Shown here in pieces: positions 18,134-32,575 of a stretch of DNA of 64,000 nucleotides. Position numbers and translations under genes: made by a program. Each line of letters opens with the position of its first letter. The stretch's first letter is position 1. The notes beneath the pieces were generated by a model. The model saw nothing but the letters and a program-made list of their open reading frames with translations, searched no databases and was not told the DNA's origin. Location: the NCBI GenBank assembly GCA_964440545.1, contig CAYTSO010000001.1, positions 63,827-127,826 of the forward strand, given 5' to 3'. The DNA comes from an uncultured Candidatus Saccharibacteria bacterium. GTDB lineage: Bacteria > Patescibacteriota > Minisyncoccia > Phycocordibacterales > UBA9973.

Positions 18134-18179
18134 GTTTTTTTCTCGCTCAGCGAGATAAATTAATGATTAATAATAATTT

Positions 18180-19334: not shown

Positions 19335-19455
19335 AGTGTTTTTTTATTAAATTTTATTAAAAAAAGCCCCGCTTTGACAGGACTCATATGAGAGCAGTGT
19401 AGCACAATCCACACCCTAACGCAAATTGTTTTTATTAGTATAGTATAATTATTCC

Positions 19456-22400
19456 ATGAAAAAGAATTTTCACTCCAAGTTTTTTGTGTTAGCAATTTTA
19501 TTAATAATTATTATCAGCGGGCTTTATTTTAGTCTACGTAACGCAACAGCGGATAGTGTTATGGTTGAGTATGGGGAAGATGATGTGATGGAAAATACCA
19601 CTGTGTCCATTGCTACACGCGATGAAACTTCTTCTCCTTGGCGCAAGTCGCCCATAACTTACAACCGCACTCTAAACGGTTCGATAAATGATTCGTTGCA
19701 AATAGACCAACAGCCAATGCGATACAAGACAACGGATGAAGGAATTTATAAACCAGCGAAAGCTTCTTTTACAATACCAACAGCATATAGCACAAAGAGT
19801 TTTTCTCTAAAAAAGTGTTTTACCCCAACGACAGGCATTACTCGCCCTCTGTTTTGGTCGCTTAACGTATATGGAACCACGTTAAATTATTCAGCCAACC
19901 AAAATATTTATCTAGATACTTTTTCCGTCTCAGGGTCTTCTCCTGCTAGCTCCGCTGTCGTTGACTCGACGACATATGGTTGTCCAGACCCGATAAAGAG
20001 CAAACCACCAATGCCTTACACCTATGGTTCAACATGGTACGGTTCTCCTTGGTATAGTTCTACCGGACTTTCAAGTATCACTGCCAATTTTTGCTCTGAC
20101 GGTACATTAAATATTCAAACCTACTTGAATGGGGTTCCATACACAGCGACCTGGTCTTTGCCAAGCAGTCTCACAATTAGTGGTCCCGATTTGACAAAAA
20201 ATAATTGGATAATTAATGGGAGTCTTGTTCCTACCGATTTAGCCCCGTCTTCTCTGATAAATGCGACTAAGACCATATCCTCTGGCACATCATTTACTTC
20301 TGGTGTATACAGCATCAATACTGCAAGAAAAGGAGGAGCTTATACAGCTTCTTATTCTGGAGCAGGGCCAAATAACTCGACACTTGGTTCAATAACGTAT
20401 TCGAGTGGCGGTAGTAGTGTTTCCTTTACTTGTTCCGCGAACCAGAATAAATATATTACATTAAATTTTTGGTCAAATGTCGATTTGACAGGTGATCCGG
20501 ATTCTTCTATTCAATTACTAGATCCTTCCACGAACAATCCTTTAACAAATATTACTACCACAACCAGTAACATAAAACTTTCTGGTAAGGTAAAAAATAT
20601 TGGTACAGTTTCTACTGGTACTGGTGAATCAAGCTACTTCCAAAATTTTTTTGAAATCGACTATCAAAAAGACCCGCCAGTTCTTGGTATAGAAGCTGTG
20701 GCAAGTAATGTTAATACTCCATTAGCGGCTAACGCGACAGCAACAACTACTGTTACCTCTAGCGGGACTATTTATTTTCCTTACGCTGGCACAAGTAGGG
20801 TAAGAGTTTGTGCAGACAAAACCAGTATAAGTAGTGGTGGACGTATTTCTGAGTCAAACAACATTACACCTCCTAACCCTCCGGGAGGTCCTGTCCCTCC
20901 TGGAACAGGAGAGCAGAATAATTGTGGTCCATGGACGACAGTGAATGTAACTAGTGGAGCATCAGCAATAAGCGTGGATTTAACTGCGAGCCCAATCAGC
21001 ATGACCCTGCCAACAAACTCAACTACTCTAGCTTGGACAACCACCGGAACACCAGATAGTTGTACTGCTTCGGGTTCTTGGAGCGGAGCAAAAACTGTAA
21101 GTGGGGGGACTGAGAATAAAACTGGATTAGTCGCAGGCACTTATACTTATACGATTACTTGCTCAAAAACTGGGGTAACAGACGCCACAGATAGTGTGAG
21201 TGTTGTTGTATCTGCCGGTGCGGTTCCTATTGTTACTATTTCAGCAAACCCGACCTCAGGAACAGTTGGTAGTGTTAGCCCGACGATTACTTATAGCGCA
21301 ACTAATAATCCAACTTCTTGTACCGCAACGGGTGATTGGGTGAATCTTTCTCCGCCGACAGCAACTGGAACAAGTCAGACTCAAGCCCAAGGGGTATTGA
21401 GTACCATTAAAACATATACATACACTTTGACTTGTACAAATTCCTACGGAACCGGGAGCCCAGCAAGTGCGACAGTAAATGTAACGGCAGAAAGTTCTGT
21501 GCCTATTTTAACAGATACCAGCATAACCAATATTACTTCAGCAAATGCTACTCTTGGTGGAACTGTTTTCTCTTGGGGTACCCCAGCGCAAGGAAAAAGA
21601 GGAACCTGCTGGTCGGCATCAGACATTCCTACTCCACTTACTTTTACTACAATGCCCGCTGGCTGTGCCCTTAAAGACACTGTTAATACAGGTTCCACTG
21701 GAAATTTTAGTCACGTTAGAACAATCTCACCTACACGTCCACTTTACGTTCGTGCTTTTGCTGGAAATGATTCTGGCATAGGTTGGGGGCCTCAAAAAGC
21801 AATTGCCGCGGATCTTACAGCAGGGGCGGTTGATGTCTCAGGAGAAATTGTGTCTGGTGTTGATAGAACATATACGGCAACAATTTCCAATATTGGGAAT
21901 TTTACCACTGGTAGTTCTTTCCACAATTTCTTTCAAAAAGCAACTGTTTCGGCAGCCGTAGCTCCAACTCTTCCACAGGGCGACAGCAGGATTACTGATC
22001 TTCCTTATACTTCAACTTCCCCAGAACCCTTATCAGCGTTAAATAGCGGCGGGACTGCTACGGTAACTTCTCCCAGTGTTGCTTTTTCTTCAAGTGGCTC
22101 AATCCGAGTTTGTGCAGATAAAACAACAAGCTCAGGAGGAAGTTCAATAAACGAAGCAAATGATAGTGGGACAGGGGAGGACAACAACTGTGGTCCGTGG
22201 ACGGACGTAGAAGTTGACACCACTGGAGCTCTCTCAGCCTCTTCCCCTTGTGAAATCAACGTAAATAATGAATGTACCACAACCTTAACTTGGAATATAC
22301 CAAATCCTCTACCGGATGTTGAGACAGCTGTCACGACCCCAGATCACGTTACTGTTCCAGGGACAAGCGCAGTATCTGGCATGACGACCTACACGTTTAT

Positions 22401-22899
22401 TGTTGATGGTCCATCAGGTAATCCAAATAGCAGAATGTTTTATCTTTATCATGACGAACTTGAGCTGGCAAATGCGCAAGTTCGGCCACAGTGCCCTGCC
22501 GGTGAATATTGGAATGGTTCAACTTGCGCTCTGGCGGTAGCTGATTATTGGACATACGATGATGTCACCTGTGGTTCCGATTGTAAAAAAATAGCTGAAT
22601 GCAGAGATGGCACCGACGAAGGCGAGGACGAAAATTGTATACCATGTAGCCCAGAACAAGCTGGGGTTTGCGAAGGGGGAATTCCAGTTCAATCATGCGC
22701 ACCTGGAGAAGGGGCATGTCCCCTTAATGGACCGCTTTGTTCATCTCCACCAAATCACCTAAGTCCTTGTATTCCAGGAAGCACTTCAAGTGCAATAAGC
22801 AGTTCTACTTCTAAATGGACATGGACTTGTACTCCTGCCGTGGGTGATGTTTCTTCCTGCACAGAGTGGAAAAAGCAGCCAATCATTATTGAAGACTAG
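19456..22899 (+). CDS. Giant secreted/surface protein 1 (1147 aa): N-terminal signal/anchor, Thr/Ser/Asn-rich, two CARDB-like modules, two paired-Cys Ig-like repeats, C-terminal Cys-rich module with KKQPIIIED tail
   Basis: Signal MKKNFHSKFFVLAILLIIIISG; CARDB-like ends ...RVCADKTSISSGGRISESNN...GEQNNCGPW and ...IRVCADKTTSSGGSSINEANDSGTGEDNNCGPW (E-x-N-E-x-NN signature); repeats NPTSCTA(S/T)G.W...TYTYT(I/L)TC at about 20962-21213 and 21223-21489; 20 Cys in the last 140 aa; TATAAT 6 nt before ATG. Confidence 0.7.
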   Translation: MKKNFHSKFFVLAILLIIIISGLYFSLRNATADSVMVEYGEDDVMENTTVSIATRDETSSPWRKSPITYNRTLNGSINDSLQIDQQPMRYKTTDEGIYKPAKASFTIPTAYSTKSFSLKKCFTPTTGITRPLFWSLNVYGTTLNYSANQNIYLDTFSVSGSSPASSAVVDSTTYGCPDPIKSKPPMPYTYGSTWYGSPWYSSTGLSSITANFCSDGTLNIQTYLNGVPYTATWSLPSSLTISGPDLTKNNWIINGSLVPTDLAPSSLINATKTISSGTSFTSGVYSINTARKGGAYTASYSGAGPNNSTLGSITYSSGGSSVSFTCSANQNKYITLNFWSNVDLTGDPDSSIQLLDPSTNNPLTNITTTTSNIKLSGKVKNIGTVSTGTGESSYFQNFFEIDYQKDPPVLGIEAVASNVNTPLAANATATTTVTSSGTIYFPYAGTSRVRVCADKTSISSGGRISESNNITPPNPPGGPVPPGTGEQNNCGPWTTVNVTSGASAISVDLTASPISMTLPTNSTTLAWTTTGTPDSCTASGSWSGAKTVSGGTENKTGLVAGTYTYTITCSKTGVTDATDSVSVVVSAGAVPIVTISANPTSGTVGSVSPTITYSATNNPTSCTATGDWVNLSPPTATGTSQTQAQGVLSTIKTYTYTLTCTNSYGTGSPASATVNVTAESSVPILTDTSITNITSANATLGGTVFSWGTPAQGKRGTCWSASDIPTPLTFTTMPAGCALKDTVNTGSTGNFSHVRTISPTRPLYVRAFAGNDSGIGWGPQKAIAADLTAGAVDVSGEIVSGVDRTYTATISNIGNFTTGSSFHNFFQKATVSAAVAPTLPQGDSRITDLPYTSTSPEPLSALNSGGTATVTSPSVAFSSSGSIRVCADKTTSSGGSSINEANDSGTGEDNNCGPWTDVEVDTTGALSASSPCEINVNNECTTTLTWNIPNPLPDVETAVTTPDHVTVPGTSAVSGMTTYTFIVDGPSGNPNSRMFYLYHDELELANAQVRPQCPAGEYWNGSTCALAVADYWTYDDVTCGSDCKKIAECRDGTDEGEDENCIPCSPEQAGVCEGGIPVQSCAPGEGACPLNGPLCSSPPNHLSPCIPGSTSSAISSSTSKWTWTCTPAVGDVSSCTEWKKQPIIIED

Positions 22900-22908
22900 T
22901 AAGTTAGT

Positions 22909-22945
22909 AAAAAATCCCCTTGATCTCAATCAGGGGGATTTTTGG
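22909..22945 (+). terminator. Rho-independent terminator (ATCCCCT-loop-AGGGGAT + T-run)
   Basis: aaaaaatccccttgatctcaatcagggggatttttgg. Confidence 0.7.
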
Positions 22946-23060
22946 GTTGTTGTGGATTACTTTATAAATATTTTTTTATTTCTTGTTATAATAGATCTAC
23001 TAATTCCATTAAAATATAATATATGGAGTAAAGTTTTGATTATTAATTAATTATTAAAAA

Positions 23061-26000
23061 ATGAAAAAATATTTTCAATTCAAACTCGTTTTGTTTTTTG
23101 TTCTCTCGTTATTAATCACTGGTGCTTTTTATTTTAATTCATCAGACAGTGTACGGGCTGCGTGTAACGAAGGAACGACTCGAACTGGGGTAGTTGACTC
23201 GATTACAGCCTCGGCTTCTGGCACAACAGTAAGTGGAATTGTAACACTTGCTCCTATGCCAGCAACCTGCAGTGGGGGGTATTATGAAGAAGATGGAACC
23301 GTTAAATTAAAGTTGGTTGATTTAAACGAGAATCCAATAAGTGGATATGAAGACTCTCTCGAGGGGCTAAATGGAGTATTCCATGATGGTGATAATTCAT
23401 ACTCAATGAGCATCTCCGGGTTGCCTGCTGGTTCGTACAAAATGAAAGCCGTACCATGCAATCCAATAACCACTTGCGGTGCAGCGAAATTTTCTGATCC
23501 CTTCACCTATACTCCGCCACCTGCTACTTACACGGTAACTGGGACCGCCGGATCTGGGGGCACAATTTCCCCTTCCTCAAGAACAGTGAATTCCGGTCAA
23601 ACAACGACATTTACCGTTACTCCAAATTCTGGGTATACCGCTTCTGCTTCTGGTTGCGGTGGTTCTCTTTCTGGCACGACCTATACTACTGGAGCAATAA
23701 CATCAAATTGTACAGTAACTGCAACCTTTACTGCGGCCTCCGTTCCTCCAACTCCTACCAATCTGACTGCTACTCCTGGTGCTTGCGGAACGGGAACCAT
23801 AAACGTTTCTTGGACTGCTTCGAGCGGAGCAACTGGTTATATTCTTTTAGATAACGGAAATACTATTTACACAGGAGCTAATACTTCTTATTCCCATACT
23901 GGGTTGAGCGCAGGATCATCTCATGCATATAATGTTGCGGCGACAAATGCCAATGGCACATCAGGAAATACAAGTACAGTTTCTGCTTTTGCCCCATCAG
24001 CTTGTAGTGCTCCCGTCGTCACTCTTTCCGCTAAAATAATTCTTTCCAACGGTGCGGAGTTTAGTCGTGCTTGGCAAAAAATGCCGGTTACCTTTAAAAA
24101 TTCTACAGATAAAATTAGGCTAACCTGGAACGCAACCAATTCCCCGACTTCTTGTACTGCCGATGGAGATTGGTCTGGAACAAAAACATCTAGCGGGACA
24201 GAAGACATTCCTCCATCTACTCCGAAAATTTATAATTTTACTTTGACTTGTACTGGCGCTGGTGGGTCTGACTCTGAAACCGTGCAAGTAGAAGCAGTTC
24301 CGGATACTAGTATGCCAAATCTTGTTCCCGATTTTGCCAGTGTAAACATACCAGATACCATTACCATAGGTGTTCCGGTGACATTAACTGCTAAAGTTAA
24401 AAATACTGGTAGCTCAGCAACGAGCGCGTCTCCTGGTTGGGGAAATAGCAATCTAGGTTCTTATTCTCGCGGTTCTTTTATTAGCGCCTTCTTTATGGCT
24501 ACTCCCTTAAGTGGAGGTACGCAAGCAAACGGAGGGCAATATTTAAGCGATGGGGATCCTGCATTCAAATACAATGTTCCTCCTAATTATCCAAACGAAT
24601 GGTGGTATAATCCTGGAACTTCTCCTTATGGATATGGTATTGCTGGATTACCTTGGGGCAATACGGCTTATCGACTCATGACTTCTCCTATTGCTGCTGG
24701 CGGAACATCTGAAACAGTTTCTACAACTTTTACTTTACCACCAGAGAACCAGCCACCTTTTATTGATTTTTCCGGAACACAAGCAATAACATTTTGTGCA
24801 GATACGGATCAACTTTCTGCGCCTATTGGCGACAACCCAATAGGTATTTTTGAGATTGCTAAACACTATGCTACCGACCCAATTTATCCAACTAGTTCTC
24901 ATACAGAAGTAGATAATTGTACTCCTTGGAAAATTGTGAATGTAACTGGTGGAGTTACTACTTATAGTGTTACCCCAAGTGCGGGAGCAAACGGAACCAT
25001 TTCCCCAAACACACCACAGACAGTTAATTCAGGTGCGACAGCAATCTTTACTGTTACTCCAAATGCCGGATATACAGCTAGTGTCGAAGGAACTTGTGGT
25101 GGATTTTTGGCTGGAACTACTTACACTACTAATCCTGTCCTCGCAAGCTGTACGGTAATTGCCAACTTTACAGCATCACCAAATCCTGATCTGACGGTTC
25201 AATATGACCCAACAACGATAAAAATTCCTGCGAATACCTCGCACACTTTTTCTGCCACAGTACAAAATATAGGGAGTGTTACCACAGGAAGTGCCTTTAA
25301 TAACATGTTTCAGACAGCAACCGGCTTTACTTTAAAGCAAGATGGCACTCCTAATTATGATCTTCCGATTAACCGGCAGGATTATGATGTTGGAACCACC
25401 GCTAGCGCACTAGCGGGCGGTGCCACCCTGGAGATTACAAAAAGCCTTTCATTTTCTCCAGGTACTTACTACGTTAGGGCTTGTGCAGACTTACCTCCAT
25501 ATGATTACGGGGTAGTCCTCAATGAAAATGAAGAAAATAACTGTAACGCTGGTGGTGCCCTTGCCTGGCAGGCAATAGAGGTGGGCCCGGATTTGACAGC
25601 GAGTGCTCCCGTAGCAGACAACTCAGGTCCTTACTTAGCTGGTGACTCAATATCTTTTAGCTCAACAATCGCGAACAGTGGAGTAGGTGATGTTGCTGGT
25701 ACCGTTACTCATATTTTCCAATATGACTATGATATAAACCACGAAAATAACAATGAAGGATTTATTGAAGTAAACACTACCAATGGAATTGTTGAAGGTG
25801 ACAACAAGGATGTTTCAGCGCAAATTCCTACTCAAAGTGATACAATACTTCTTTACATTCGAGTTTGCGCTGACAATGACGCTAACTGGAGCGACTTAGT
25901 GGATGAATCAAATGAGGGCAATAACTGTAGTGTTGCCATTAACGGAGGGTGGACAGTTTTAAACATAACTAGTTCTGTTTCTTGTGGTATTGCAGGAGAT

Positions 26001-26240
26001 CTTTGCCCAATTATTGGCAGTGAATGTGGACAAATCGGAGAATGTCAACCTGATGGTATCTGTGGCGGAACACTTGATCCCGTAACTTGTCCAGTTAATA
26101 ATTGTACAAAAGTTCCCGACACGTGTTCTGGTGGAATTACCCCAGAGTCACTTCCAGACAGCACAGCTAAATTTATTTGGAAATGCGGGGGGTACACCTG
26201 TGAGGTAGAAAAAAAGCAGCCGATTATTATTGAAGACTAA
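23061..26240 (+). CDS. Giant secreted/surface protein 2 (1059 aa): signal peptide, two divergent InlB-B-repeat-like modules, FN3-like module, paired-Cys Ig-like repeat, three CARDB-like modules, C-terminal Cys-rich module with KKQPIIIED tail
   Basis: InlB-B-like: TYTVTGTAGSGGTISPSSRTVNSGQTTTFTVTPNSGYTASASGCGG...CTVTATFTA (about 23523-23735) and TYSVTPSAGANGTISPNTPQTVNSGATAIFTVTPNAGYTASVEGTCGG...CTVIANFTA (about 24960-25175); FN3-like PTNLTATPG...INVSWTASSGATGYIL...YSHTGLSAGSSHAYNVAA (about 23748-23999); CARDB-like ends YVRACADLPPYDYGVVLNENEENNCN, IRVCADNDANWSDLVDESNEGNNCS. Confidence 0.7.
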   Translation: MKKYFQFKLVLFFVLSLLITGAFYFNSSDSVRAACNEGTTRTGVVDSITASASGTTVSGIVTLAPMPATCSGGYYEEDGTVKLKLVDLNENPISGYEDSLEGLNGVFHDGDNSYSMSISGLPAGSYKMKAVPCNPITTCGAAKFSDPFTYTPPPATYTVTGTAGSGGTISPSSRTVNSGQTTTFTVTPNSGYTASASGCGGSLSGTTYTTGAITSNCTVTATFTAASVPPTPTNLTATPGACGTGTINVSWTASSGATGYILLDNGNTIYTGANTSYSHTGLSAGSSHAYNVAATNANGTSGNTSTVSAFAPSACSAPVVTLSAKIILSNGAEFSRAWQKMPVTFKNSTDKIRLTWNATNSPTSCTADGDWSGTKTSSGTEDIPPSTPKIYNFTLTCTGAGGSDSETVQVEAVPDTSMPNLVPDFASVNIPDTITIGVPVTLTAKVKNTGSSATSASPGWGNSNLGSYSRGSFISAFFMATPLSGGTQANGGQYLSDGDPAFKYNVPPNYPNEWWYNPGTSPYGYGIAGLPWGNTAYRLMTSPIAAGGTSETVSTTFTLPPENQPPFIDFSGTQAITFCADTDQLSAPIGDNPIGIFEIAKHYATDPIYPTSSHTEVDNCTPWKIVNVTGGVTTYSVTPSAGANGTISPNTPQTVNSGATAIFTVTPNAGYTASVEGTCGGFLAGTTYTTNPVLASCTVIANFTASPNPDLTVQYDPTTIKIPANTSHTFSATVQNIGSVTTGSAFNNMFQTATGFTLKQDGTPNYDLPINRQDYDVGTTASALAGGATLEITKSLSFSPGTYYVRACADLPPYDYGVVLNENEENNCNAGGALAWQAIEVGPDLTASAPVADNSGPYLAGDSISFSSTIANSGVGDVAGTVTHIFQYDYDINHENNNEGFIEVNTTNGIVEGDNKDVSAQIPTQSDTILLYIRVCADNDANWSDLVDESNEGNNCSVAINGGWTVLNITSSVSCGIAGDLCPIIGSECGQIGECQPDGICGGTLDPVTCPVNNCTKVPDTCSGGITPESLPDSTAKFIWKCGGYTCEVEKKQPIIIED

Positions 26241-26297
26241 TTCTTCGATAAGCTTGGGACAATATTCTTCTGTAGGTTTAGTACGAATTAAAACAAA

Positions 26298-26325
26298 AAA
26301 ATCTCCCTTGTGGGGGATTTTTTTG
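26298..26325 (+). terminator. Rho-independent terminator (ATCTCCC-ttgt-GGGGGAT with one G-U, + T-run)
   Basis: aaaaaaatctcccttgtgggggatttttttg. Confidence 0.65.
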
Positions 26326-26339
26326 TTATACTATATAGG

Positions 26340-28109
26340 ATGGTAATCAACGAAGAACAGTTTAAAAAATCTATTTTAGATTCAGGACTTATTTCGCGTT
26401 CTGAATTTGAGGAAATAGTTAAAAAATCAGAAGCAAGTGATCAGAAAATTGGCGATATTTTGCTTTCTGAAGGAAAAATATCAGAAACTGACCTGAAACG
26501 AATAGAGGCCTTTGTGTTAAGCATACCGTTTGTTGATTTAAATAATCAAAAAATAGAGTCCTCCGTCCTTTTACTTATTCCAGAACCTATCGCTAGAAAT
26601 TACAATATTGTTGCCTATAAAAAAACCGAAAAAACTTTAGAGGTGGCGATGTTGGATGTGGATGATTTGCCGGTAATCGATTTCATCAAAAAACGCTCCG
26701 GACTAAAAATCCTTCCTCGACTTACTGATACTGTTTCCATGAGGTCTGCGCTCGTTCAATATCGGCAAAGCCTGAAGAAAGAATTTCAGGACATTATTGA
26801 AAAAGAGTGTGACGCTATCTCTTGTAAAGATGAAGGGGCGTGGAAATTAAACGGAAAATCTAGTGAGAAATCTGAATCCGAATTGAAACAAATGGCAGAA
26901 GAACTGCCGATTGTAAAAATTGTTGACTCTCTAATTTTTCACGCGATTCTGCAAAACGCTTCTGACATCCACATTGAGCCTGGAGAAAAGAACCTCACTG
27001 TGCGTTATCGAATAGATGGTATTTTGCACGACGCAATGACCCTAGACAAAAATGCCACACTGGGCATAACTGCTCGCGTAAAGGTGTTGGCAAATTTAAA
27101 ACTGGACGAAAAAAGGTTGCCTCAGGACGGAAGATTTAAAACAGAACAAAATGGAGAAAAAGTTTCCTTTCGTGTTTCTACTCTGCCAACTTTTTACGGA
27201 GAAAAAACCGTTATTCGAATTTTGAAGGAAAACATGCACGGGTTTTCTCTGGAGACACTTGGTTTTCACGGAGAAGGGCTAGAAAGAATTCACGAGGCCT
27301 TAAAACAAAAAACAGGAATGATTTTGGCTACGGGTCCAACCGGAAGCGGAAAAACAACCACTCTTTACACGATGCTCGATATTTTGAACAAACCGGAAGT
27401 AAACATTTCCACCGTAGAAGATCCTATTGAGTATCAAATGCCAAGAGTTAACCAGACGCAGGTAAAACCCGAGATTGGCTTAACTTTTGCCAATGGTCTT
27501 CGCTCTTTACTTCGGCAAGATCCAGACATTGTGATGGTGGGGGAAATTCGGGACGGAGAAACTGCCGGTTTGGCGATTAATGCTTCTCTTACTGGACACT
27601 TGGTTTTATCTACCGTGCACACTAATTCCGCTGCTGGCTCGATTCCAAGACTTATTGATATGGGAGCCGAGCCCTTTTTGATAACGGCTACCGTAAAGAC
27701 CATTATTGCTCAGAGGCTGGTGCGTAGACTCGCTCTCAATAAGGAAAAATATTTTTTATCGCCTGATGAAATAAAAAATCTTGCCAAGATTGTTGATTTG
27801 GATAGGGTACTTAATTTTCTCAGAGAAGAAAAAATTGTAGATGAGAAAAGTACTTGGGATAAAATTCCTTTTTACAAAGCAGTAAAGAGCTCAGACTCCG
27901 AAGATGGCTATGGCGGGCGTATCGGCATACATGAAGTATTGGCGGTAACCCAAACAATCAGAGAAATGATTTTGAAGAGTGGTTCGCAAGACGATATAGA
28001 AGCCCAGGCAAAAAAAGAAGGAATGATGACAATGATAGAGGACGGAGTTTTTCAAGCAGTGCTTGGAATGACTTCGTTAGAGGAAGTGTTCAGGGTGGTT
28101 TCTGAATAA
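26340..28109 (+). CDS. pilB: Type IV pilus / type II secretion assembly ATPase (PilB/GspE family)
   Basis: N-terminal T2SSE_N-like domain, Walker A GPTGSGKTTT, Asp box, Walker B DPDIVMVGEIRD, His box LVLSTVHTNSAAGS; ORF-track GTG 26310 lies inside the upstream terminator, so ATG 26340 is preferred (extended -10 TGtTATACT 7 nt upstream). Confidence 0.9.
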   Translation: MVINEEQFKKSILDSGLISRSEFEEIVKKSEASDQKIGDILLSEGKISETDLKRIEAFVLSIPFVDLNNQKIESSVLLLIPEPIARNYNIVAYKKTEKTLEVAMLDVDDLPVIDFIKKRSGLKILPRLTDTVSMRSALVQYRQSLKKEFQDIIEKECDAISCKDEGAWKLNGKSSEKSESELKQMAEELPIVKIVDSLIFHAILQNASDIHIEPGEKNLTVRYRIDGILHDAMTLDKNATLGITARVKVLANLKLDEKRLPQDGRFKTEQNGEKVSFRVSTLPTFYGEKTVIRILKENMHGFSLETLGFHGEGLERIHEALKQKTGMILATGPTGSGKTTTLYTMLDILNKPEVNISTVEDPIEYQMPRVNQTQVKPEIGLTFANGLRSLLRQDPDIVMVGEIRDGETAGLAINASLTGHLVLSTVHTNSAAGSIPRLIDMGAEPFLITATVKTIIAQRLVRRLALNKEKYFLSPDEIKNLAKIVDLDRVLNFLREEKIVDEKSTWDKIPFYKAVKSSDSEDGYGGRIGIHEVLAVTQTIREMILKSGSQDDIEAQAKKEGMMTMIEDGVFQAVLGMTSLEEVFRVVSE

Positions 28110-28135: not shown

Positions 28136-29353
28136 ATGTTTTTTACTTATATCGCAAAAACAAAAACAGGGGAAGAAATTGAAGGCGTGATAAATGCTGC
28201 AGATCGTTATGTTGCTGCCCAGGAAATAAAATCTCGTGGCCTAATGCCACTATCTGTTAAAGAAAAGAGAGAAGTTTTTTGGAATATTTCTTCAAAGTTC
28301 TCTAATATTTTTTCTAGAATAAGTGTTAACGAAAAAATTATTTTTACAAAAAATTTGAGCGGAATGCTTCGAGCAGGGCTTTCTCTTTATCGAGCGCTGT
28401 CGGTTTTGGAAAAACAGACTAAAAATCCTAAGTTTAATAAAATTTTATTATCTCTAGCAACTGATATAAATGCCGGTCAGTCTTTTTTTTATGCTCTTTC
28501 AAAATTTCCCGAAGTATTTTCTGGCCTTTTTCTTTCGATGACGAAAGCCGGAGAAGAGTCCGGAAATCTTTCTGGGGCTCTGTCTGATATTGGTTTAAAT
28601 TTAGAAAAGGCCCACTCCTTAACAAAAAAAATAAGAGGAGCGCTTATTTATCCTGGCATCATTCTTTCTGCGATGGTCGTCATTGGTGTTTTAATGTTTG
28701 CTTTTGTGGTTCCAACCCTGGCGAGCACATTCAAAGAGCTTGGGGTCGTTCTGCCTCTTTCTACCAGGATTCTTATTTTCTTTGGTAATTTTTTCTCTAA
28801 TCATTTGATTTTAAGTTTTACTATTATTATTGGCGTTGGTTTTGGTTTATATATGATGCTTCGAGCCAAGTTTATAAGACCTTTTATTGATTTTTTTGTT
28901 ATCAAAATTCCAGTTGTCAGTACTTTAACCAAAGAATTAAACACTGCCCGCACCGCCCGAACAATTTCTTCTCTTTTGCTTGCTGGAGTTTCCCTCGGAA
29001 GAGCCTTGGAAATAACAGAAGATGTGGTCCAAAATATTTATTACAAAAAAGTTCTGGAGAAAGCTAAAGATGAGATAGAAAAAGGCGTTCCGCTTTCTCA
29101 GGCTTTTAAAACAAATATCAAACTTTATCCGATCATGATGGGAGAAATGGTAGAAGTTGGAGAAGAGACAGGCAGACTTTCTGACATGTTGCTGGACATT
29201 TCTTCTTTTTATGAAGAAGAGGTTGAAAGCAAGACAAAGAATCTTTCCACCATTATCGAGCCTTTGCTGATGATTGTTATTGGGTCGGGGGTTGGATTTT
29301 TTGCTATTTCAATGATTTCTCCGCTTTATTCAATTTTAGGAAGCATAGAATAA
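28136..29353 (+). CDS. pilC: Type IV pilus / T2SS inner-membrane platform protein (PilC/GspF family)
   Basis: 405 aa, duplicated T2SSF domains, 3-4 TM helices, conserved GxxL.ALS..F region. Confidence 0.85.
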   Translation: MFFTYIAKTKTGEEIEGVINAADRYVAAQEIKSRGLMPLSVKEKREVFWNISSKFSNIFSRISVNEKIIFTKNLSGMLRAGLSLYRALSVLEKQTKNPKFNKILLSLATDINAGQSFFYALSKFPEVFSGLFLSMTKAGEESGNLSGALSDIGLNLEKAHSLTKKIRGALIYPGIILSAMVVIGVLMFAFVVPTLASTFKELGVVLPLSTRILIFFGNFFSNHLILSFTIIIGVGFGLYMMLRAKFIRPFIDFFVIKIPVVSTLTKELNTARTARTISSLLLAGVSLGRALEITEDVVQNIYYKKVLEKAKDEIEKGVPLSQAFKTNIKLYPIMMGEMVEVGEETGRLSDMLLDISSFYEEEVESKTKNLSTIIEPLLMIVIGSGVGFFAISMISPLYSILGSIE

Positions 29354-29357
29354 TTTT

Positions 29358-29825
29358 ATGAAAAATAATTTTAGAAAAGGAATAAGTGTTATAGAAATTT
29401 TAATTGTAATTGTCGTCCTTGGCATTATATTTTCAATTGTCTTTTCGCAATTTTCTAAAATTAGGGAAAATCAAGTATTGAAAACAGCCGTGAGTGATAT
29501 TTTGTCTAGTTTAAATAAAGCGCAAACGCAAACCTTAGCATCTCTAGACTCTTCTTCTTACGGGGTGCATTTTCAAGCTGACAAGGTTGTAATTTTTAAA
29601 GGCACGATCTTTTCAGAAAGCGATGTTGATAATGAAGAAATAAATATTTTGGCACCTGCAACCATCTCAGACGTAACTTTGTCCGAAGTGAGCGGAAGTA
29701 CCGGCGATATTTACTTTAATCGTCTTTCTGGAATGCCAAATCAGGCTGGTGTTATAACTATCTCTACAGATTCTTTTTCTAAAATTATTACAATTTCAGC
29801 TACAGGCACTGCTAGTGCGAACTAA
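29358..29825 (+). CDS. Prepilin-type (class III signal) pilin/pseudopilin, probable major subunit
   Basis: MKNNFRKG|ISVIEILIVIVVLGII: G-1, Glu+5, hydrophobic N-terminal helix. Confidence 0.75.
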   Translation: MKNNFRKGISVIEILIVIVVLGIIFSIVFSQFSKIRENQVLKTAVSDILSSLNKAQTQTLASLDSSSYGVHFQADKVVIFKGTIFSESDVDNEEINILAPATISDVTLSEVSGSTGDIYFNRLSGMPNQAGVITISTDSFSKIITISATGTASAN

Positions 29826-29877
29826 AAAATGTTCTATTCAATGAATTAACCAAAGCCACGATAAACAAACTTGAATC

Positions 29878-30300
29878 ATGAAAAAGCAAACTACAAACAA
29901 AGGTTTTATGGCTGTCGAAATATTAATTGCGGTTTCAATTATTGTTATTTTTGTTTTGGTTGCCATGACTGTTGCTCAAAAATCTATTTATATTTCTCGT
30001 CAGGCCCTACATGCGACTCAAGCGGCCTTTTTACTAGAGGAAGGGGCAGAAAATACCAGAATTATTCGGGACAATAATTGGGAAGATCTTGTCGCCCTGA
30101 ATACTTCGGAGCAAATAGGAATTTTTAACAGATCGGTTGTTGTTTCTGAAGTAAGCAGAAATGAAATAACTGGAGATATTGGTTCTGGTGTGGTAGACCC
30201 TAGAACAAAACTGATAACAGTTACAGTTTCCTGGCCTGAAGGAGGGCAAACTATAAGCAAAACTTTACAATTTTATGTAGCGGATATTTTTTCAGAATGA
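29878..30300 (+). CDS. Prepilin-type minor pilin/pseudopilin
   Basis: MKKQTTNKG|FMAVEILIAVSIIV: G-1, Glu+5. Confidence 0.7.
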   Translation: MKKQTTNKGFMAVEILIAVSIIVIFVLVAMTVAQKSIYISRQALHATQAAFLLEEGAENTRIIRDNNWEDLVALNTSEQIGIFNRSVVVSEVSRNEITGDIGSGVVDPRTKLITVTVSWPEGGQTISKTLQFYVADIFSE

Positions 30301-30821
30301 AAATTTTTAATAAAAAAGTGAATAGAAAAAAAAGTCCGTCTGCGTTTGGAGGTTACGCTGTTTTAGAATTAATCTTTTACATTACTTTTTTTGCCATTCT
30401 TTCAATTGTTCTCGTCAACGCGATGATAACCATGGCAAAATCATTCAAAGAAACTTCTATTCAAGCAGAGTTGGTTCAAAGCGGAATGATGATGGAGAAA
30501 ATATCTCGGGAGCTTAGACAGGCCGACGATTTTTCTTTTGCTTCAAATATTCTTATTATCAATACAAGAGACGATTTTGACAATTCAAAAACAATAACCT
30601 ACGCCTTTTTTGATTCAAGTGCGCAAATAGAAGATAGTCTTCTTGGAGATTTAGGAAATTTAAATACTCCCAATATTGCAATTATAGATTTTAATTTTAC
30701 GCCAGTCATCACCGCTAAAGGAAAAGCGGCAGTTGTAACGTTAACCGTTAGGTCTAACAACGACACCAGCGAGAGAACAATCACTTTTAACAATACTGTT
30801 GTCCTCCGGGGAAGTTATTAA
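30297..30821 (+). CDS. Prepilin-type minor pilin/pseudopilin
   Basis: ...SAFGG|YAVLELIFYITFF: G-1, Glu+5; start overlaps previous stop (ATGA). Confidence 0.6.
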   Translation: MKIFNKKVNRKKSPSAFGGYAVLELIFYITFFAILSIVLVNAMITMAKSFKETSIQAELVQSGMMMEKISRELRQADDFSFASNILIINTRDDFDNSKTITYAFFDSSAQIEDSLLGDLGNLNTPNIAIIDFNFTPVITAKGKAAVVTLTVRSNNDTSERTITFNNTVVLRGSY

Positions 30822-30832
30822 AAATAAAAATT

Positions 30833-32575
30833 ATGTCAGGATCTAGAAAAATAAAAAAAATTAATTATCAAGCCGGTGCAGCAATGCTTGTTTCCGTGAT
30901 TTTCTTTCTTTTTATTTCCCTGGCTATTATCTTTGGTCTTGTTTCTCCAACGGTGCGAGAATTTAAAATAGCGAATGATTTAATAAAATCCAAGCAAAGT
31001 TTCTTTTTGTCCGAATCTGGAGCAGAGGATATATTTTTTAGATTAAAAAACGCAAAACCAACAAATTCCCCTTCCTTTATTGAGCTTAATGGTAGTACTG
31101 CTACGACCACCATTGCTGATTCTGGTTACAATGAGAAAACGATAACCGCCCTAGGGGATGTCTTTTCCAGACAAAGAGTAAACGAGCTTCTTTTGGGCAC
31201 TGGTACGGGGATTGCTTTCGGCTACGGAGTGCAAGTTGGAACCGGCGGTTTTACCATGGGAAACGGGTCCTCTGTTCAAGGAAGCGTGTATTCAAACGGC
31301 ACAATTGTTGGAGCCGGATCAATTACTGGCACTGCCGTGTCGGCAAACTCTGCCGCTCTTTCCGCCGATCAAGTAAATGGCTCTGGTACTCCTGCATATG
31401 ATATTACATTTGGAAACGCAGACAGCACACAGGATTTTGCCCAAAGTTTTACTGTGAGCACAACAGGGGTGGTTAGTAAGGTTGAATTATATTTTAAAAA
31501 AGTCAGCATACCCTCAAATTTAACCGTTCGAATTGTTTCTGACGACGGAGGGAGCCCGGGTACGACCACTCTTGCTTCTAGTGTTGTTTCTGCCTCTTTA
31601 ATTTCTACTAATTATGGTTGGGTAAACGTGCCTTTTTCTTCTAACCCGGAATTAATATCCGGCACAAATTATTGGATTGTTATTGACGCAGCTACAAATT
31701 CTTCTCGCTATTATGCTATAGGTGCAAATGACAACGGCTACGGAAGTGGAGTTGGCAAAATTGGTAAGTATGGTAACAACTGGAATACCACAAGTCCAGC
31801 TGGATTAGACGGATACTTTAAGTTATATTTGGGCGGGCTAACAGGCCTCATTGACGGGATTATCGTTGGCACAGAGGGCGAGGGTAATGCTTATGCACAC
31901 ACCGTAAACAATTCAAACATTGCGGGCACAAATTATTGTCAGGAAGGAAATAATAATAATAAATCTTGCGATACAAGCTTGCCGGATCCAACGCAGGTCG
32001 CTATGCCAATTTCTGAGCAAAATATCTTAGATTGGAAAAACGAGGCAGCAGAAGGAGGAACACATTTTGGAGACATTACCATCGATGGAATTTCTACTTC
32101 CTTGGGTCCTAAAAGAATTACAGGCAATCTTATTGTCACCAACAATGCCCATCTCACCATGACAGGAAATATTTGGGTTGAGGGGGATATGGATATTAGC
32201 AACAACGCAGTCGTTAGTCTTTCTCCAAGTTATGGCACCTCTGATGGTACCATGATTGTTGATGGCATTATTGATATATCAAACAACGCTATCTTTAACG
32301 GTTCCGGCTCTGAGGGCAGTTATATTATGGCTCTTTCAACCTCAACTTCAACCTTGGCCATTACCTTGGCAAACAACGGTGGAGCTGTAACTCTTTACGC
32401 AGCCAATGGTACGGTAAACCTGGCGAATAATTCTACCGCCAAGGCGCTAAACGGGAAGTATATCAATTTAAATAATAATGCTGTGGTAATTTATGATGAA
32501 GGATTGGCAAACTCCAACTTTGTAAATGGGCCATCCGGTGGATGGAATATCAGATCGTGGAAAGAGGTTAAATAA
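30833..32575 (+). CDS. Large (580 aa) Glu5-less pilin-like protein (GspK/PilX-like candidate tip or adhesin subunit) with beta-helix-like Asn-rich repeats
   Basis: N-term ...INYQAG|AAMLVSVIFFLF: prepilin-like hydrophobic helix but Val at +5; C-terminal repeats NNAHLTMTGNIWVEGDMDISNNAVVSL / IDISNNAIFNGSG / ANNGGAVTLYAANGTVNLANNSTA. Confidence 0.45.
   Translation: MSGSRKIKKINYQAGAAMLVSVIFFLFISLAIIFGLVSPTVREFKIANDLIKSKQSFFLSESGAEDIFFRLKNAKPTNSPSFIELNGSTATTTIADSGYNEKTITALGDVFSRQRVNELLLGTGTGIAFGYGVQVGTGGFTMGNGSSVQGSVYSNGTIVGAGSITGTAVSANSAALSADQVNGSGTPAYDITFGNADSTQDFAQSFTVSTTGVVSKVELYFKKVSIPSNLTVRIVSDDGGSPGTTTLASSVVSASLISTNYGWVNVPFSSNPELISGTNYWIVIDAATNSSRYYAIGANDNGYGSGVGKIGKYGNNWNTTSPAGLDGYFKLYLGGLTGLIDGIIVGTEGEGNAYAHTVNNSNIAGTNYCQEGNNNNKSCDTSLPDPTQVAMPISEQNILDWKNEAAEGGTHFGDITIDGISTSLGPKRITGNLIVTNNAHLTMTGNIWVEGDMDISNNAVVSLSPSYGTSDGTMIVDGIIDISNNAIFNGSGSEGSYIMALSTSTSTLAITLANNGGAVTLYAANGTVNLANNSTAKALNGKYINLNNNAVVIYDEGLANSNFVNGPSGGWNIRSWKEVK

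What the first reader, a model, noticed from the sequence alone, without database searches (positions are those of the whole stretch)
19456..26240. Tandem pair of giant modular surface proteins (CARDB-like + InlB-B-repeat-like + FN3 + paired-Cys Ig-like) immediately upstream of a pseudopilus operon
Two same-strand genes encode Thr/Ser/Asn-rich proteins of 1147 and 1059 aa. Each has its own leaderless-type promoter and terminator, and each starts with a signal/anchor helix. Both are mosaics of beta-sandwich adhesion-type modules. CARDB-like units end in the E-x-N-E-x-NNC signature. Two divergent InlB B-repeat-like units (GSGGTISP...TFTVTPNSGYTAS...CTVTATFTA) flank an FN3-like unit. Paired-Cys repeats (NPTSCTA(S/T)G.W ... 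TYTYT(L/I)TC) are shared by both proteins. Module order differs between the paralogs, suggesting domain shuffling. In a reduced genome otherwise filled with housekeeping genes, the two genes take up 6.6 kb, over 10% of the window. Their position next to a T2SS/ComG-like machinery argues for a host- or partner-cell attachment function, possibly an episymbiont adhesin. The combination with the shared C-terminal tag (next finding) is not an architecture I recognise.
Basis: partly seen in the sequence, partly recalled or inferred. Interest (0 to 1): 0.8.

Follow-up and report, generated by a model that had tools for sequence, protein, structure and literature searches.

The report
Tagged modular adhesins beside pilus operon
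Two large secreted bead-on-a-string surface proteins of a Nomurabacteria-like (CPR) bacterium end in a 9-residue tag that, in dozens of related genomes, marks hypervariable proteins encoded just upstream of the type IV pilus genes, so they are probably interchangeable adhesins mounted on the pilus tip.

Summary
Both ORFs are real: 19456-22899 (1147 aa) and 23061-26240 (1059 aa). An independent assembly reproduces them at 100% identity. Each has one N-terminal signal peptide and no other anchor. Pfam confirms two InlB-B repeats, one fn3 and two CARDB units in B. A has two CARDB-like and two PKD-like units by homology to B.

The shared tail KKQPIIIED is one variant of a conserved extreme C-terminal tag, roughly [KR]KK-P-x-[FYI]-[IK]-E-[ND]. 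In the closest relatives, the variable giant ORF directly upstream of pilB carries it in 8 of 9 loci. A blind DNA scan of metagenomes for the tag alone found 42 long-ORF ends. Of these, 36 have pilB downstream and none shows a different context. Synonymous sites in the tag vary freely.

The downstream operon is pilB-pilC plus core minor pilins H-I-J-K. The E5-less K-type pilin ends in a similar aromatic-x-Glu tail.

The best reading is non-homologous analogues of PilC/PilY1/MshQ, meaning Sec-exported adhesins that dock on the minor-pilin tip complex by C-terminal beta-strand addition. Docking itself is inferred, not shown. I rate it a new variant of a known kind.

The parts
19444..19449 (+). 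TATAAT -10-like box 6 nt before the ATG of gene A (leaderless-type layout)
   Evidence: Read directly from the sequence. The consensus scan lists no full sigma-70 site here.
19456..22899 (+). Gene A, 1147 aa, secreted modular protein
   Evidence: ORF. Singleton cluster present in NCBI and Logan. Identical in an independent assembly.
19456..19554 (+). A signal peptide (aa 1-33, site NATA|DS)
   Evidence: It is the only hydrophobic segment in A. The cleavage site was read by eye.
19555..20475 (+). A N-terminal region (aa 34-340), no known family; candidate distal or binding end
   Evidence: No Pfam match. The only relative found in 1.84e9 representatives is P0132 (44% identity over aa 1-323), which also ends in a tag..TPIFIEI.
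20488..20856 (+). A CARDB-like unit 1 (aa 345-467)
   Evidence: phmmer with B's Pfam-certified CARDB unit gives i-E 4e-6. Pfam itself gives no match.
20968..21510 (+). A, two paired-Cys PKD-like units (aa 505-595 and 597-685)
   Evidence: K319L-like PKD at E 0.0096 and 0.013, below the cut-off. Homologous to the B unit at 9e-12 and 3e-10. This is the region matched by most of the 2958 relatives.
21517..21825 (+). A fn3-like unit (aa 688-790)
   Evidence: The few word-index hits to A carry fn3-type Pfam domains. Which part of A they cover was not tabulated. No direct Pfam match.
21829..22176 (+). A CARDB-like unit 2 (aa 792-907)
   Evidence: phmmer with B's CARDB unit gives 3.4e-13.
22213..22485 (+). 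A module aa 920-1010, no family; recurs in tagged proteins of L003, L005, L006 and L007
   Evidence: blastp. No Pfam match.
22492..22869 (+). A Cys-rich C-terminal region ending in the mini-module CS.PP.H..C..G...SKWTWTC....C
   Evidence: The last 54 aa are 43% identical to the C-terminus of P0037. The same motif occurs in L010. No family match.
22870..22896 (+). A C-terminal tag KKQPIIIED
22910..22943 (+). Intrinsic-terminator-like hairpin (15 pairs) plus T-run after gene A
23061..26240 (+). Gene B, 1059 aa, secreted modular protein
   Evidence: ORF. P0001 is a singleton.
23061..23159 (+). B signal peptide (aa 1-33, site VRA|AC)
   Evidence: The cleavage site was read by eye.
23160..23528 (+). 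B N-terminal domain (aa 34-156), no family
   Evidence: Only a chance-level ComP_DUS match, E 0.16.
23529..23738 (+). B divergent InlB B-repeat 1 (PF18998)
   Evidence: 32.3 bits against a cut-off of 23.6.
23751..23978 (+). B fn3 (PF00041)
   Evidence: 25.7 bits against a cut-off of 25. PDB DCC fn3 matches at E 0.029.
24012..24275 (+). B paired-Cys PKD-like unit (aa 318-405)
   Evidence: No Pfam match. Homologous to the two A units.
24288..24935 (+). B long CARDB-like unit with an insertion (aa 410-625)
   Evidence: CARDB matches only at its start, E 0.044. Its end matches A 420-499 at 1.5e-4.
24963..25175 (+). B divergent InlB B-repeat 2
   Evidence: 29.3 bits.
25182..25547 (+). B CARDB unit (aa 708-829)
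   Evidence: 29.5 bits against a cut-off of 22.7.
25587..25931 (+). B CARDB unit (aa 843-957)
   Evidence: 28.5 bits.
25938..26210 (+). B Cys-rich C-terminal region
   Evidence: No family match. Not significantly similar to A's C-terminal region (E = 1).
26211..26237 (+). B C-terminal tag KKQPIIIED
   Evidence: Identical in protein to A's tag. It differs from A's at 2 synonymous sites out of 27 nt.
26302..26317 (+). Terminator-like hairpin abutting the TGTTATACT -10 box of pilB
   Evidence: The same layout recurs in related loci.
26340..28109 (+). pilB (T2SSE plus MshEN extension ATPase). The start is more likely ATG 26340 than GTG 26310.
   Evidence: PF00437 at 5e-123 and TIGR02538 at 1e-153.
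28136..29353 (+). pilC / GspF platform protein
   Evidence: PF00482 at 1e-52.
29358..30821 (+). Three small prepilins in H-I-J order (GspH-like 155 aa, PilV/ComGE-like 140 aa, ComGF-like 174 aa), all with G|xxxxE
30833..32575 (+). Large prepilin-like protein lacking Glu5 (K-type, PilK/PilX/GspK position), ending ..GGWNIRSWKEVK; candidate docking partner
   Evidence: N-terminus QAG|AAMLVSV. The C-terminal W-[KR]-E tail is conserved in about 47 loci. NF041539 domain at aa 190-314.

Best explanation
A and B are Sec-exported, non-pilin surface proteins built from shuffled beta-sandwich modules (CARDB, PKD-like, fn3, InlB-B). Their unique N-terminal domains would be the binding ends. Their last ~9 residues (KKQPIIIED) would act as a portable docking tag. 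After export, the tag would add as a beta-strand to the tip-initiation complex formed by the four core minor pilins encoded just downstream (H-I-J-K). The most likely site is at or next to the E5-less K-type pilin. The adhesin would then ride on the tip of the type IV filament.

This is how PilC/PilY1 and MshQ work, but without their beta-propeller domain. The two tandem genes, and the extreme variability of the orthologous locus, would provide alternative adhesins for one conserved machine. They are plausibly used for attachment to host or partner cells.

Shown: the genes, the signal peptides, the modules, the tag and its protein-level conservation, and its linkage to pilB.
Inferred: docking, tip location and any role in host adhesion.
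For: 1. In the 9 closest species (PilB 75-81% identical), the ORF directly upstream of pilB on the same strand is 390-2296 aa long and highly variable. In 8 of the 9 it ends in a related tag..KKPSFIEN..RKKPTFIEG..KKKPILLEN..SKPGFIEK..KSPGYIEN and others.
2. A scan of JGI metagenome contigs for KKPxFIE[ND]-stop, with no reference to pilB, gave 82 matches. Of these, 42 are in-frame ends of long ORFs. pilB lies downstream on the same strand in 36 of the 42, and within about 200 bp in 34. The other 6 run out of sequence, start another signal-peptide modular gene (tandem, like A then B), or carry an inserted TA pair.
3. Four further tagged proteins found by domain similarity (P0076, P0110, P0037, P0271) also sit directly before T2SSE-T2SSF-pilins.
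4. Selection acts on the peptide, not the DNA. Among 30 distinct 3' ends the Pro codon is CCG 12, CCA 9, CCT 6, CCC 3, and the Lys and Glu codons are mixed. A and B share 9 of 9 residues with 2 synonymous differences, while their preceding C-terminal regions are not significantly similar (E = 1).
5. The tag is portable. It follows either a PKD-like last strand (..VTVTVKKKP.FIEN) or a Cys mini-module (..C.ELKKKP.FIEN).
6. By a strict pattern, 35 of the 149 best relatives of A in 1.84e9 representatives end in the motif. In an earlier, looser scan of 1355 ORFs in the same loci only 3 such tails lay outside the proteins upstream of pilB, a background of about 0.2%.
7. In 1252 ORFs from 80 loci, a C-terminal [FYW][KRIQE]E.{1,3} tail occurs 63 times. 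About 47 are the K-type E5-less pilin, about 11 are the tagged giants and about 5 are others. The tag therefore resembles the pilin's own terminal strand.
8. Precedent. The last ~10 residues of PilC/PilY1 (and, by modelling, MshQ) complete the PilK beta-sheet in trans. GspK and CpaL do the same in cis with their own extreme C-terminus (PMC13533445).
9. A and B have signal peptides and no other anchoring signal.
Against: - No structural or experimental test of docking was possible. The single-sequence AF2 model of the K-type pilin was unusable (mean pLDDT 39).
- The K-type pilin keeps its own conserved C-terminal strand in loci with and without tagged genes. The slot used by PilY1 may therefore already be filled in cis.
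- The tagged genes are separate transcription units, with a terminator before pilB.
- Two relatives with looser tags lie upstream of the tuf-S10 operon, not pilB: P0276 (..SPIIIEN) and P0098 (..SIKEQ).
- Gene order in these genomes is conserved even between unrelated genes (nusA, tpiA and pgk flank the pilus operon). Adjacency alone is therefore weak functional evidence.
- The tagged genes are one mosaic family that may simply have stayed at one locus.
Confidence: 0.5

Rival explanations
1. The proteins are secreted cargo rather than tip-resident adhesins. The tag is a pilus-dependent secretion signal that docks transiently on the minor-pilin tip, so that filament extension pushes the protein through the wall or S-layer. 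The protein is then released, as with TcpF/CofJ of type IVb pili.
For: The linkage and tag evidence is the same as for the main explanation. There is precedent for a short terminal peptide binding a tip minor pilin in a species-specific way (PMC9565799; PMC10120004). The operon has H-I-J-K pseudopilin-like genes and no major pilin in the window, which is T2SS-like.
Against: The known T4bP signals are N-terminal and act in diderm bacteria with a secretin. Proteins of more than 1000 aa made of repeated Ig-like spacers look like stalks for a cell- or filament-bound adhesin, not soluble effectors. Nothing here distinguishes release from retention.
Confidence: 0.15
2. The proteins are ordinary surface or S-layer-associated proteins. 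Their tag serves a pilus-independent purpose, such as binding a wall or S-layer component or recognition by an unknown processing enzyme. They sit next to pilB only because this is a long-lived variable locus downstream of nusA.
For: In more distant genomes nusA abuts pilB directly, so the giants look inserted at that junction. P0276 and P0098 keep the nusA side or lie by tuf without pilB. Synteny is conserved among unrelated genes here. There is a terminator between B and pilB.
Against: A general sorting signal would be expected on many proteins at many loci. All informative strict-tag hits are at the pilB locus, and the 64-kb window has only these two. In L101 and L104 the upstream neighbours differ while pilB, or a further modular gene, still follows. 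The tag resembles the K-type pilin C-terminus. No known sorting signal lacks a TM segment and is this short, and NCBIfam has no match.
Confidence: 0.22
3. The conserved tail is a regulatory element, not a protein-protein tag. It would be either a nascent arrest peptide coupling export of the giant protein to pilB expression, or a DNA/RNA signal for pilB that overlaps the 3' end.
For: The tail always lies just before a terminator-promoter junction that precedes pilB. It is conserved right up to the stop codon.
Against: Synonymous positions vary freely, so it is not a nucleic-acid element. The stop-to-hairpin distance ranges from about 2 to more than 60 nt. pilB has its own leaderless-type promoter, so read-through would not give a translatable start. 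A carries the tag although B, not pilB, follows it.
Confidence: 0.04
4. Nothing special: the tail is just the last beta-strand of a shared terminal domain inherited by descent.
For: In many members the tag directly continues a PKD-like strand, VTVTV.
Against: The tag follows two unrelated terminal modules. It is preceded by a strand-breaking KKKP. It is 9/9 identical in A and B while their flanking C-terminal regions are not detectably similar.
Confidence: 0.05

Closest known systems
[quoted passage not shown]
   Same: Large Sec-exported non-pilin proteins encoded beside the core minor pilins, with a variable N-terminal part and a short conserved extreme C-terminus. Neisseria also has two paralogous copies. 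The E5-less K-type pilin is the likely partner.
   Different: No PilY1/PilC beta-propeller domain is detectable. The genes lie upstream of pilB rather than after pilX. The organism is a CPR bacterium, presumed monoderm (general knowledge of the group, not tested here). The K-type pilin here retains its own cis strand. Docking is untested.
TcpF/CofJ type IVb pilus secretion signal (Oki et al., Sci Adv 2022, PMC9565799)
   Same: A short linear terminal peptide of a Sec-exported, operon-linked protein binds the tip minor pilin. Recognition is species-specific, with a key aromatic residue.
   Different: That signal is N-terminal, the proteins are small soluble colonisation factors, and the partner is a TcpB/CofB trimer in a diderm T4bP.
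GspK / CpaL / ComGG-type tip pilins with a cis C-terminal strand (PMC13533445)
   Same: The window's 580-aa E5-less pilin has a conserved N-terminal pilin part, a variable middle (orthologues span 433-609 aa) and a conserved extreme C-terminus. The tags share its aromatic-x-Glu signature.
   Different: A and B are not pilins, having neither a class III signal nor Glu5.
Large accessory-domain minor pilins PilX1/PilX2 of Saccharibacteria TM7x (PMC11623550) and modular pilins of Streptococcus sanguinis (PMC8179133)
   Same: CPR and monoderm type IV pili that carry adhesive modules for host binding.
   Different: There the adhesive module is fused to a pilin. Here it is a separate protein with a Sec signal and a C-terminal tag.
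Generic multi-domain CARDB/PKD/fn3/InlB-B surface proteins
   Same: Same module families, strung together.
   Different: Full-length architecture has no counterpart, since both proteins form singleton clusters. The tag and the pilB linkage define a narrower group.

Membership tests
CARDB (PF07705) | Match to the Pfam model above the gathering score (22.7 bits) | tested here: met
   B aa 708-829 scores 29.5 bits and aa 843-957 scores 28.5 bits. A has no direct Pfam match, but A 792-907 and A 345-467 are homologous to B's unit at 3e-13 and 4e-6.
Divergent InlB B-repeat (PF18998, Flg_new_2) | Match above the gathering score (23.6 bits) | tested here: met
   B aa 157-226 scores 32.3 bits and aa 635-705 scores 29.3 bits. 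A has none.
Fibronectin type III (PF00041) | Match above the gathering score (25 bits) | tested here: met
   B aa 231-306 scores 25.7 bits when scanned alone, which is borderline, and 18.4 bits in the whole protein. A 688-790 is supported only indirectly, through fn3-bearing hits.
PKD (K319L-like PKD, PF22352) | Match above the gathering score (27 bits) | tested here: inconclusive
   A's two paired-Cys units score 16.3 and 15.9 bits (E about 0.01). B's unit has no match.
PilC/PilY1 tip adhesins | Conserved C-terminal beta-propeller domain (Neisseria_PilC/PilY1 type) | tested here: not met
   No such Pfam or NCBIfam match in A or B, whole or in segments.
PilC/PilY1 tip adhesins | Last ~10 residues add a beta-strand to the PilK-family minor pilin | not testable with these tools
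   No multimer modelling is available. The single-sequence model of the K-type pilin has pLDDT 39. The only indirect support is the similarity of the tag to the pilin's own tail.
PilC/PilY1 tip adhesins | Sec signal peptide, and encoded with the core minor pilins | tested here: met
   N-terminal signal peptides are present. The genes are adjacent to pilB-pilC-H-I-J-K, though upstream and separately transcribed.
Type IV (modular) pilins | Class III signal: G|(F/x)xxxE followed by a hydrophobic helix | tested here: not met
   No such motif occurs in the first 60 aa of A or B. It is present in the three small downstream genes.
Sortase substrates and TM-type C-terminal sorting signals (LPXTG, PEP-CTERM, GlyGly-CTERM and others) | A motif followed by a C-terminal hydrophobic helix and a basic tail | tested here: not met
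   There is no C-terminal hydrophobic segment and no terminal LPXTG. NCBIfam has no match.
T4bP secretion-signal proteins (TcpF/CofJ) | A flexible N-terminal peptide of the mature protein that binds the tip minor-pilin trimer | not tested
   The conserved element here is C-terminal. The N-termini of tagged proteins are not conserved.

The most novel reading that the evidence does not exclude
Paceibacteria may use a plug-in system. A portable 8-9-residue C-terminal tag ([KR]KK-P-x-Phi-Phi-E-x-COOH) would load interchangeable, rapidly shuffled giant adhesins onto one conserved type IV filament tip. The tag would mimic or extend the terminal strand of the K-type minor pilin, giving PilY1-like function without any PilY1 homology. 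The hypervariable locus upstream of pilB would then be the host-range determinant of these episymbionts. The tag would also be a simple sequence handle for finding pilus-tip adhesins across uncultured CPR lineages.
Probability: 0.4. Interest if true: 0.8.

Novelty: new variant of a known kind. Interest (0 to 1): 0.62.

Why it matters
How CPR/Patescibacteria recognise and hold on to partner cells is largely unknown outside cultivated Saccharibacteria, where pilin-fused modules are the candidates. A short conserved tag would name concrete adhesin candidates in Nomurabacteria-like genomes if it ties hypervariable giant proteins to the pilus tip complex. It would also explain why about 10% of this stretch of a reduced genome is spent on them. 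It would extend the recently described C-terminal beta-strand licensing principle of type IV filaments to a CPR bacterium and to proteins with no PilY1 domain. Finally, it would give a search key for such proteins in metagenomes: the tag together with pilB adjacency.

Tried and rejected
Searches and models that gave nothing:
- The word-index protein search with the aligned C-termini of A and B found nothing, not even the proteins themselves, so this is a weak negative.
- The genome-collection scan with the same alignment found 54 pattern matches and no relative. The window's own genome is not among the species representatives.
- NCBIfam has no match for A or B.
- The PDB sequence search gave nothing for A and only a marginal fn3 match for B.
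Depth is 0-5 over the N- and C-terminal parts.
- AF2 single-sequence on the K-type pilin gave mean pLDDT 39. It was not used further, and I did not spend the second job or any fold search.

Ideas considered and rejected or left open:
- The tail as a DNA-level promoter or regulatory element: rejected, because synonymous sites vary.
- The tail as an arrest peptide: rejected, because the spacing varies and A's tag is not followed by pilB.
- The tail as a prepilin-leader mimic (KKG|FTLIE versus KKKP-IFIE): the Glu register differs by one and no hydrophobic helix follows. I leave it as an unexplained resemblance.
- Assembly chimera: rejected, given the independent assembly and the absence of long repeats.
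- Covariation between tag variants and the pilin tails was looked at by eye across about 12 loci. No pattern emerged, and there are too few independent lineages.

Full report
OBSERVATION. The window holds two same-strand ORFs exactly as described. Gene A is 19456-22899 (1147 aa) and gene B is 23061-26240 (1059 aa). Both are rich in Thr, Ser, Gly and Asn, with 30 and 28 cysteines. Each has a single hydrophobic segment at its N-terminus followed by an AxA-type signal-peptidase site. Neither has a prepilin motif, a C-terminal membrane helix or an LPXTG signal. Terminator-like hairpins follow both genes, at 22910-22943 and 26302-26317. A TATAAT box lies 6 nt before A's ATG. For B I could not confirm a leaderless arrangement.

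The sequence is not an assembly artefact. A separate Logan assembly of run SRR14492172 gives an 8981-bp contig that is 100% identical to window 17580-26560. The only DNA-level self-similarities inside the region are three short stretches, one of which is the tag.

MODULES.
- InlB B-repeat (PF18998), aa 157-226, 32.3 bits
- fn3, aa 231-306, 25.7 bits (just above threshold)
- InlB B-repeat, aa 635-705, 29.3 bits
- CARDB, aa 708-829, 29.5 bits
- CARDB, aa 843-957, 28.5 bits

A is much less well covered. Pfam gives only sub-threshold PKD-like matches for its two paired-Cys units. NCBIfam gives nothing and PDB sequences give nothing. Homology to B fills part of the gap. B's CARDB unit matches A 792-907 (3e-13) and A 345-467 (4e-6). 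B's paired-Cys unit matches A 508-577 and A 608-668. A 685-790 attracts fn3-type proteins. A 34-340, A 920-1010, B 34-156 and both Cys-rich C-terminal regions remain unassigned. The two InlB-B units in B are separated by fn3, a PKD-like unit and a long CARDB-like unit, so 'flank an FN3-like unit' is loose.

ORGANISM AND NEIGHBOURHOOD. PilB of the window is 80-81% identical to PilB of MAGs labelled Candidatus Nomurabacteria, Paceibacterota or Minisyncoccia. Upstream, on the other strand, lie nusA and an H+-pyrophosphatase. Downstream lie pilB (T2SSE plus MshEN) and pilC (T2SSF). Three small prepilins follow, with G|xxxxE signals: GspH-like, PilV/ComGE-like and ComGF-like. Next is a 580-aa prepilin-like protein that lacks Glu5, then tpiA and pgk. 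This is the canonical H-I-J-K order of core minor pilins. No major pilin is visible in the window.

THE KEY FINDING: A CONSERVED TAG LINKED TO pilB. A and B both end in KKQPIIIED, and no other ORF in the window does. I fetched 80 loci around PilB homologues from species-representative genomes. In the nine closest (PilB at least 75% identical), the ORF immediately upstream of pilB on the same strand is 390-2296 aa long, has a signal peptide, and shares shuffled modules with A and B. In eight of the nine it ends in a related tail..QKKPSFIEN..RKKPTFIEG..KKKPILLEN..SKPGFIEK..KSPGYIEN..KKKPLFQEQ..KEKAGFKEN and ..KIPGYKEN. In more distant genomes nusA abuts pilB directly.

I then scanned the JGI metagenome contigs for the DNA pattern encoding KKPxFIE[ND]-stop, using no information about pilB.
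- Of 82 matches, 42 are the in-frame end of a long ORF, with tails such as ..YTVTC....VTVTVKKKPIFIEN or ..C.ELKKKPIFIEN.
- pilB (71-85% identical to the window's) lies downstream on the same strand in 36 of the 42, and within about 200 bp in 34.
- The remaining six do not contradict this. One has 19 bp of downstream sequence. Four start another signal-peptide modular gene (a tandem arrangement like A then B). One has a toxin-antitoxin pair inserted.
- Four more tagged proteins found through domain similarity (P0076, P0110, P0037, P0271) are also directly followed by T2SSE-T2SSF-pilins.

There are exceptions. P0276 (..SPIIIEN) and the pair around P0098 (..NIKES and ..SIKEQ) sit before the tuf-S10 operon.

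THE TAG IS SELECTED AS A PEPTIDE AND IS PORTABLE. Among 30 distinct metagenomic 3' ends, the Pro codon is CCG 12, CCA 9, CCT 6 and CCC 3, and the Lys, Glu and Ile codons also vary. Positions outside the search pattern are conserved too, as V-T-V-[KR] before KKP. A and B differ at two synonymous sites within the tag, yet their preceding C-terminal regions are not significantly similar (E = 1). The tag follows two unrelated terminal modules: a PKD-like last strand, or a small Cys module (CS.PP.H..C..G...KWTWTC...C) that A shares with P0037 and L010.

An exhaustive phmmer search with A against 1.84 billion representatives found 2958 relatives, nearly all through the PKD-like pair. By a strict pattern, 35 of the best 149 end in the motif. 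These include a second flavour, [DN]P.[YF][KQ]EF. The general form is P-x-[FYWI]-[IKQR]-E-x-COOH, usually preceded by basic residues.

RESEMBLANCE TO THE K-TYPE PILIN TAIL. Across the 80 loci, the E5-less large pilin ends in a conserved ..SGGW.I.SW[KR]E[VI]x. In 1252 non-overlapping ORFs, a C-terminal [FYW][KRIQE]E.{1,3} tail occurs 63 times. About 47 are this pilin, about 11 are the tagged giants and about 5 are others.

MECHANISM. Ellison et al. (PMC13533445) show that the last ~10 residues of PilC/PilY1 adhesins add a beta-strand in trans to the PilK-family (E5-less) minor pilin. This licenses and anchors the tip complex. MshQ is predicted to do the same. GspK, ComGG-type pilins and CpaL supply that strand in cis from their own extreme C-terminus.

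The present system fits this logic in four ways: Sec-exported giant proteins, a variable body, a short conserved extreme C-terminus, and adjacency to H-I-J-K with an E5-less K-type pilin. I therefore propose that A and B are non-homologous functional analogues of PilC/PilY1/MshQ, mounted on the filament tip through the tag. The two paralogues, and the hypervariable orthologous locus, would provide alternative binding specificities.

A closely related alternative is transient docking for pilus-driven export, as for TcpF/CofJ (PMC9565799).

Several facts weigh against the model:
- The K-type pilin keeps its own cis strand whether or not a tagged gene is present.
- A terminator separates B from pilB.
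- The exceptions next to tuf exist.
- Gene order in these genomes is conserved even among unrelated genes.

Docking could not be modelled.

COMPARISON AND NOVELTY. A and B are members of the CARDB, InlB-B and fn3 domain families at the module level. They are not PilC/PilY1 family members (no propeller), not pilins and not sortase substrates. Work on type IV pili of Saccharibacteria points to pilin-fused modules (PilX1/PilX2) as adhesins (PMC11623550). My searches found no description of tagged non-pilin proteins linked to pilB in Patescibacteria. I therefore rate this a new variant of a known kind. The principle (C-terminal strand docking of a tip adhesin) is known. The tag, the protein family and the CPR host lineage are not.

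VERDICT. Interest is 0.62. The modules themselves are ordinary. The conserved tag and its tight linkage to the pilus operon are a concrete, testable lead on how Paceibacteria attach to partner cells.

Noticed in passing
window 26302-26345; also L082-L160 downstream of tagged genes: pilB probably starts at ATG 26340, not GTG 26310. A conserved layout recurs in about 30 loci: stop codon, GC-rich hairpin with T-run, TG(y)TATA(M)T, 6-8 nt, then the ATG of pilB. This is a terminator abutting a leaderless-type promoter.
   Followed up: partly
window 30833-32575 and orthologues in L003-L081: The E5-less large prepilin has a conserved pilin-like N-terminus, a variable middle (orthologues span 433-609 aa; a choice-of-anchor R domain, NF041539, at aa 190-314 here) and a strongly conserved extreme C-terminus, ..SGGW.I.SW[KR]E[VI]x. 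This looks like a GspK/CpaL-type cis strand.
   Followed up: partly
window 29358-30821 and orthologues: The three small prepilins also have conserved extreme C-termini across loci: ..ATG..S.N, ..FYI.DIFS and ..TVVLRG.Y.
   Followed up: no
L164 6877-12908; L168 424-4488 and 9447-10124: In two more distant genomes, giants with looser tags lie before the tuf-S10 operon instead of pilB. In L168 a prepilin gene (N_methyl plus Lcl_C) is inserted between rplB and rpsS.
   Followed up: no
L086, about 90-730 nt downstream of the tagged gene's stop: Two small ORFs directly after a tagged gene look by eye like a HigB/HigA-type toxin-antitoxin pair, which suggests the locus accepts insertions.
   Followed up: no
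L084 1038-7851 versus L124 4539-11429 and L003 3066-9956: The same 2296-aa tagged gene is split into two ORFs in one metagenome contig, by a repeat-bounded deletion of about 75 nt plus an indel. This could be natural variation (on/off switching) or an assembly error.
   Followed up: partly
window 20001-26000: GC is 0.43-0.44 across A and B against about 0.35-0.40 in the flanks. This is plausibly an amino-acid composition effect (T, S, G, A and P codons) rather than foreign origin.
   Followed up: no
tags versus prepilin leaders (window 22870-22896, 26211-26237; 29358-30400): The tag (KKKP-IFIE-N or KKQP-IIIE-D) resembles a prepilin cleavage region (KKG|FTLIE). Both have basic residues, a small or turn residue, three hydrophobic residues and a Glu. 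The Glu register differs by one and no helix follows. Unexplained.
   Followed up: no
L010 8762-9934; L018 4581-6038: The shorter tagged or near-tagged proteins begin with a ..SGYAWSSNIGW(I/L)S(F/M)N motif after the signal peptide. A and B lack this module, and its family is unknown.
   Followed up: no
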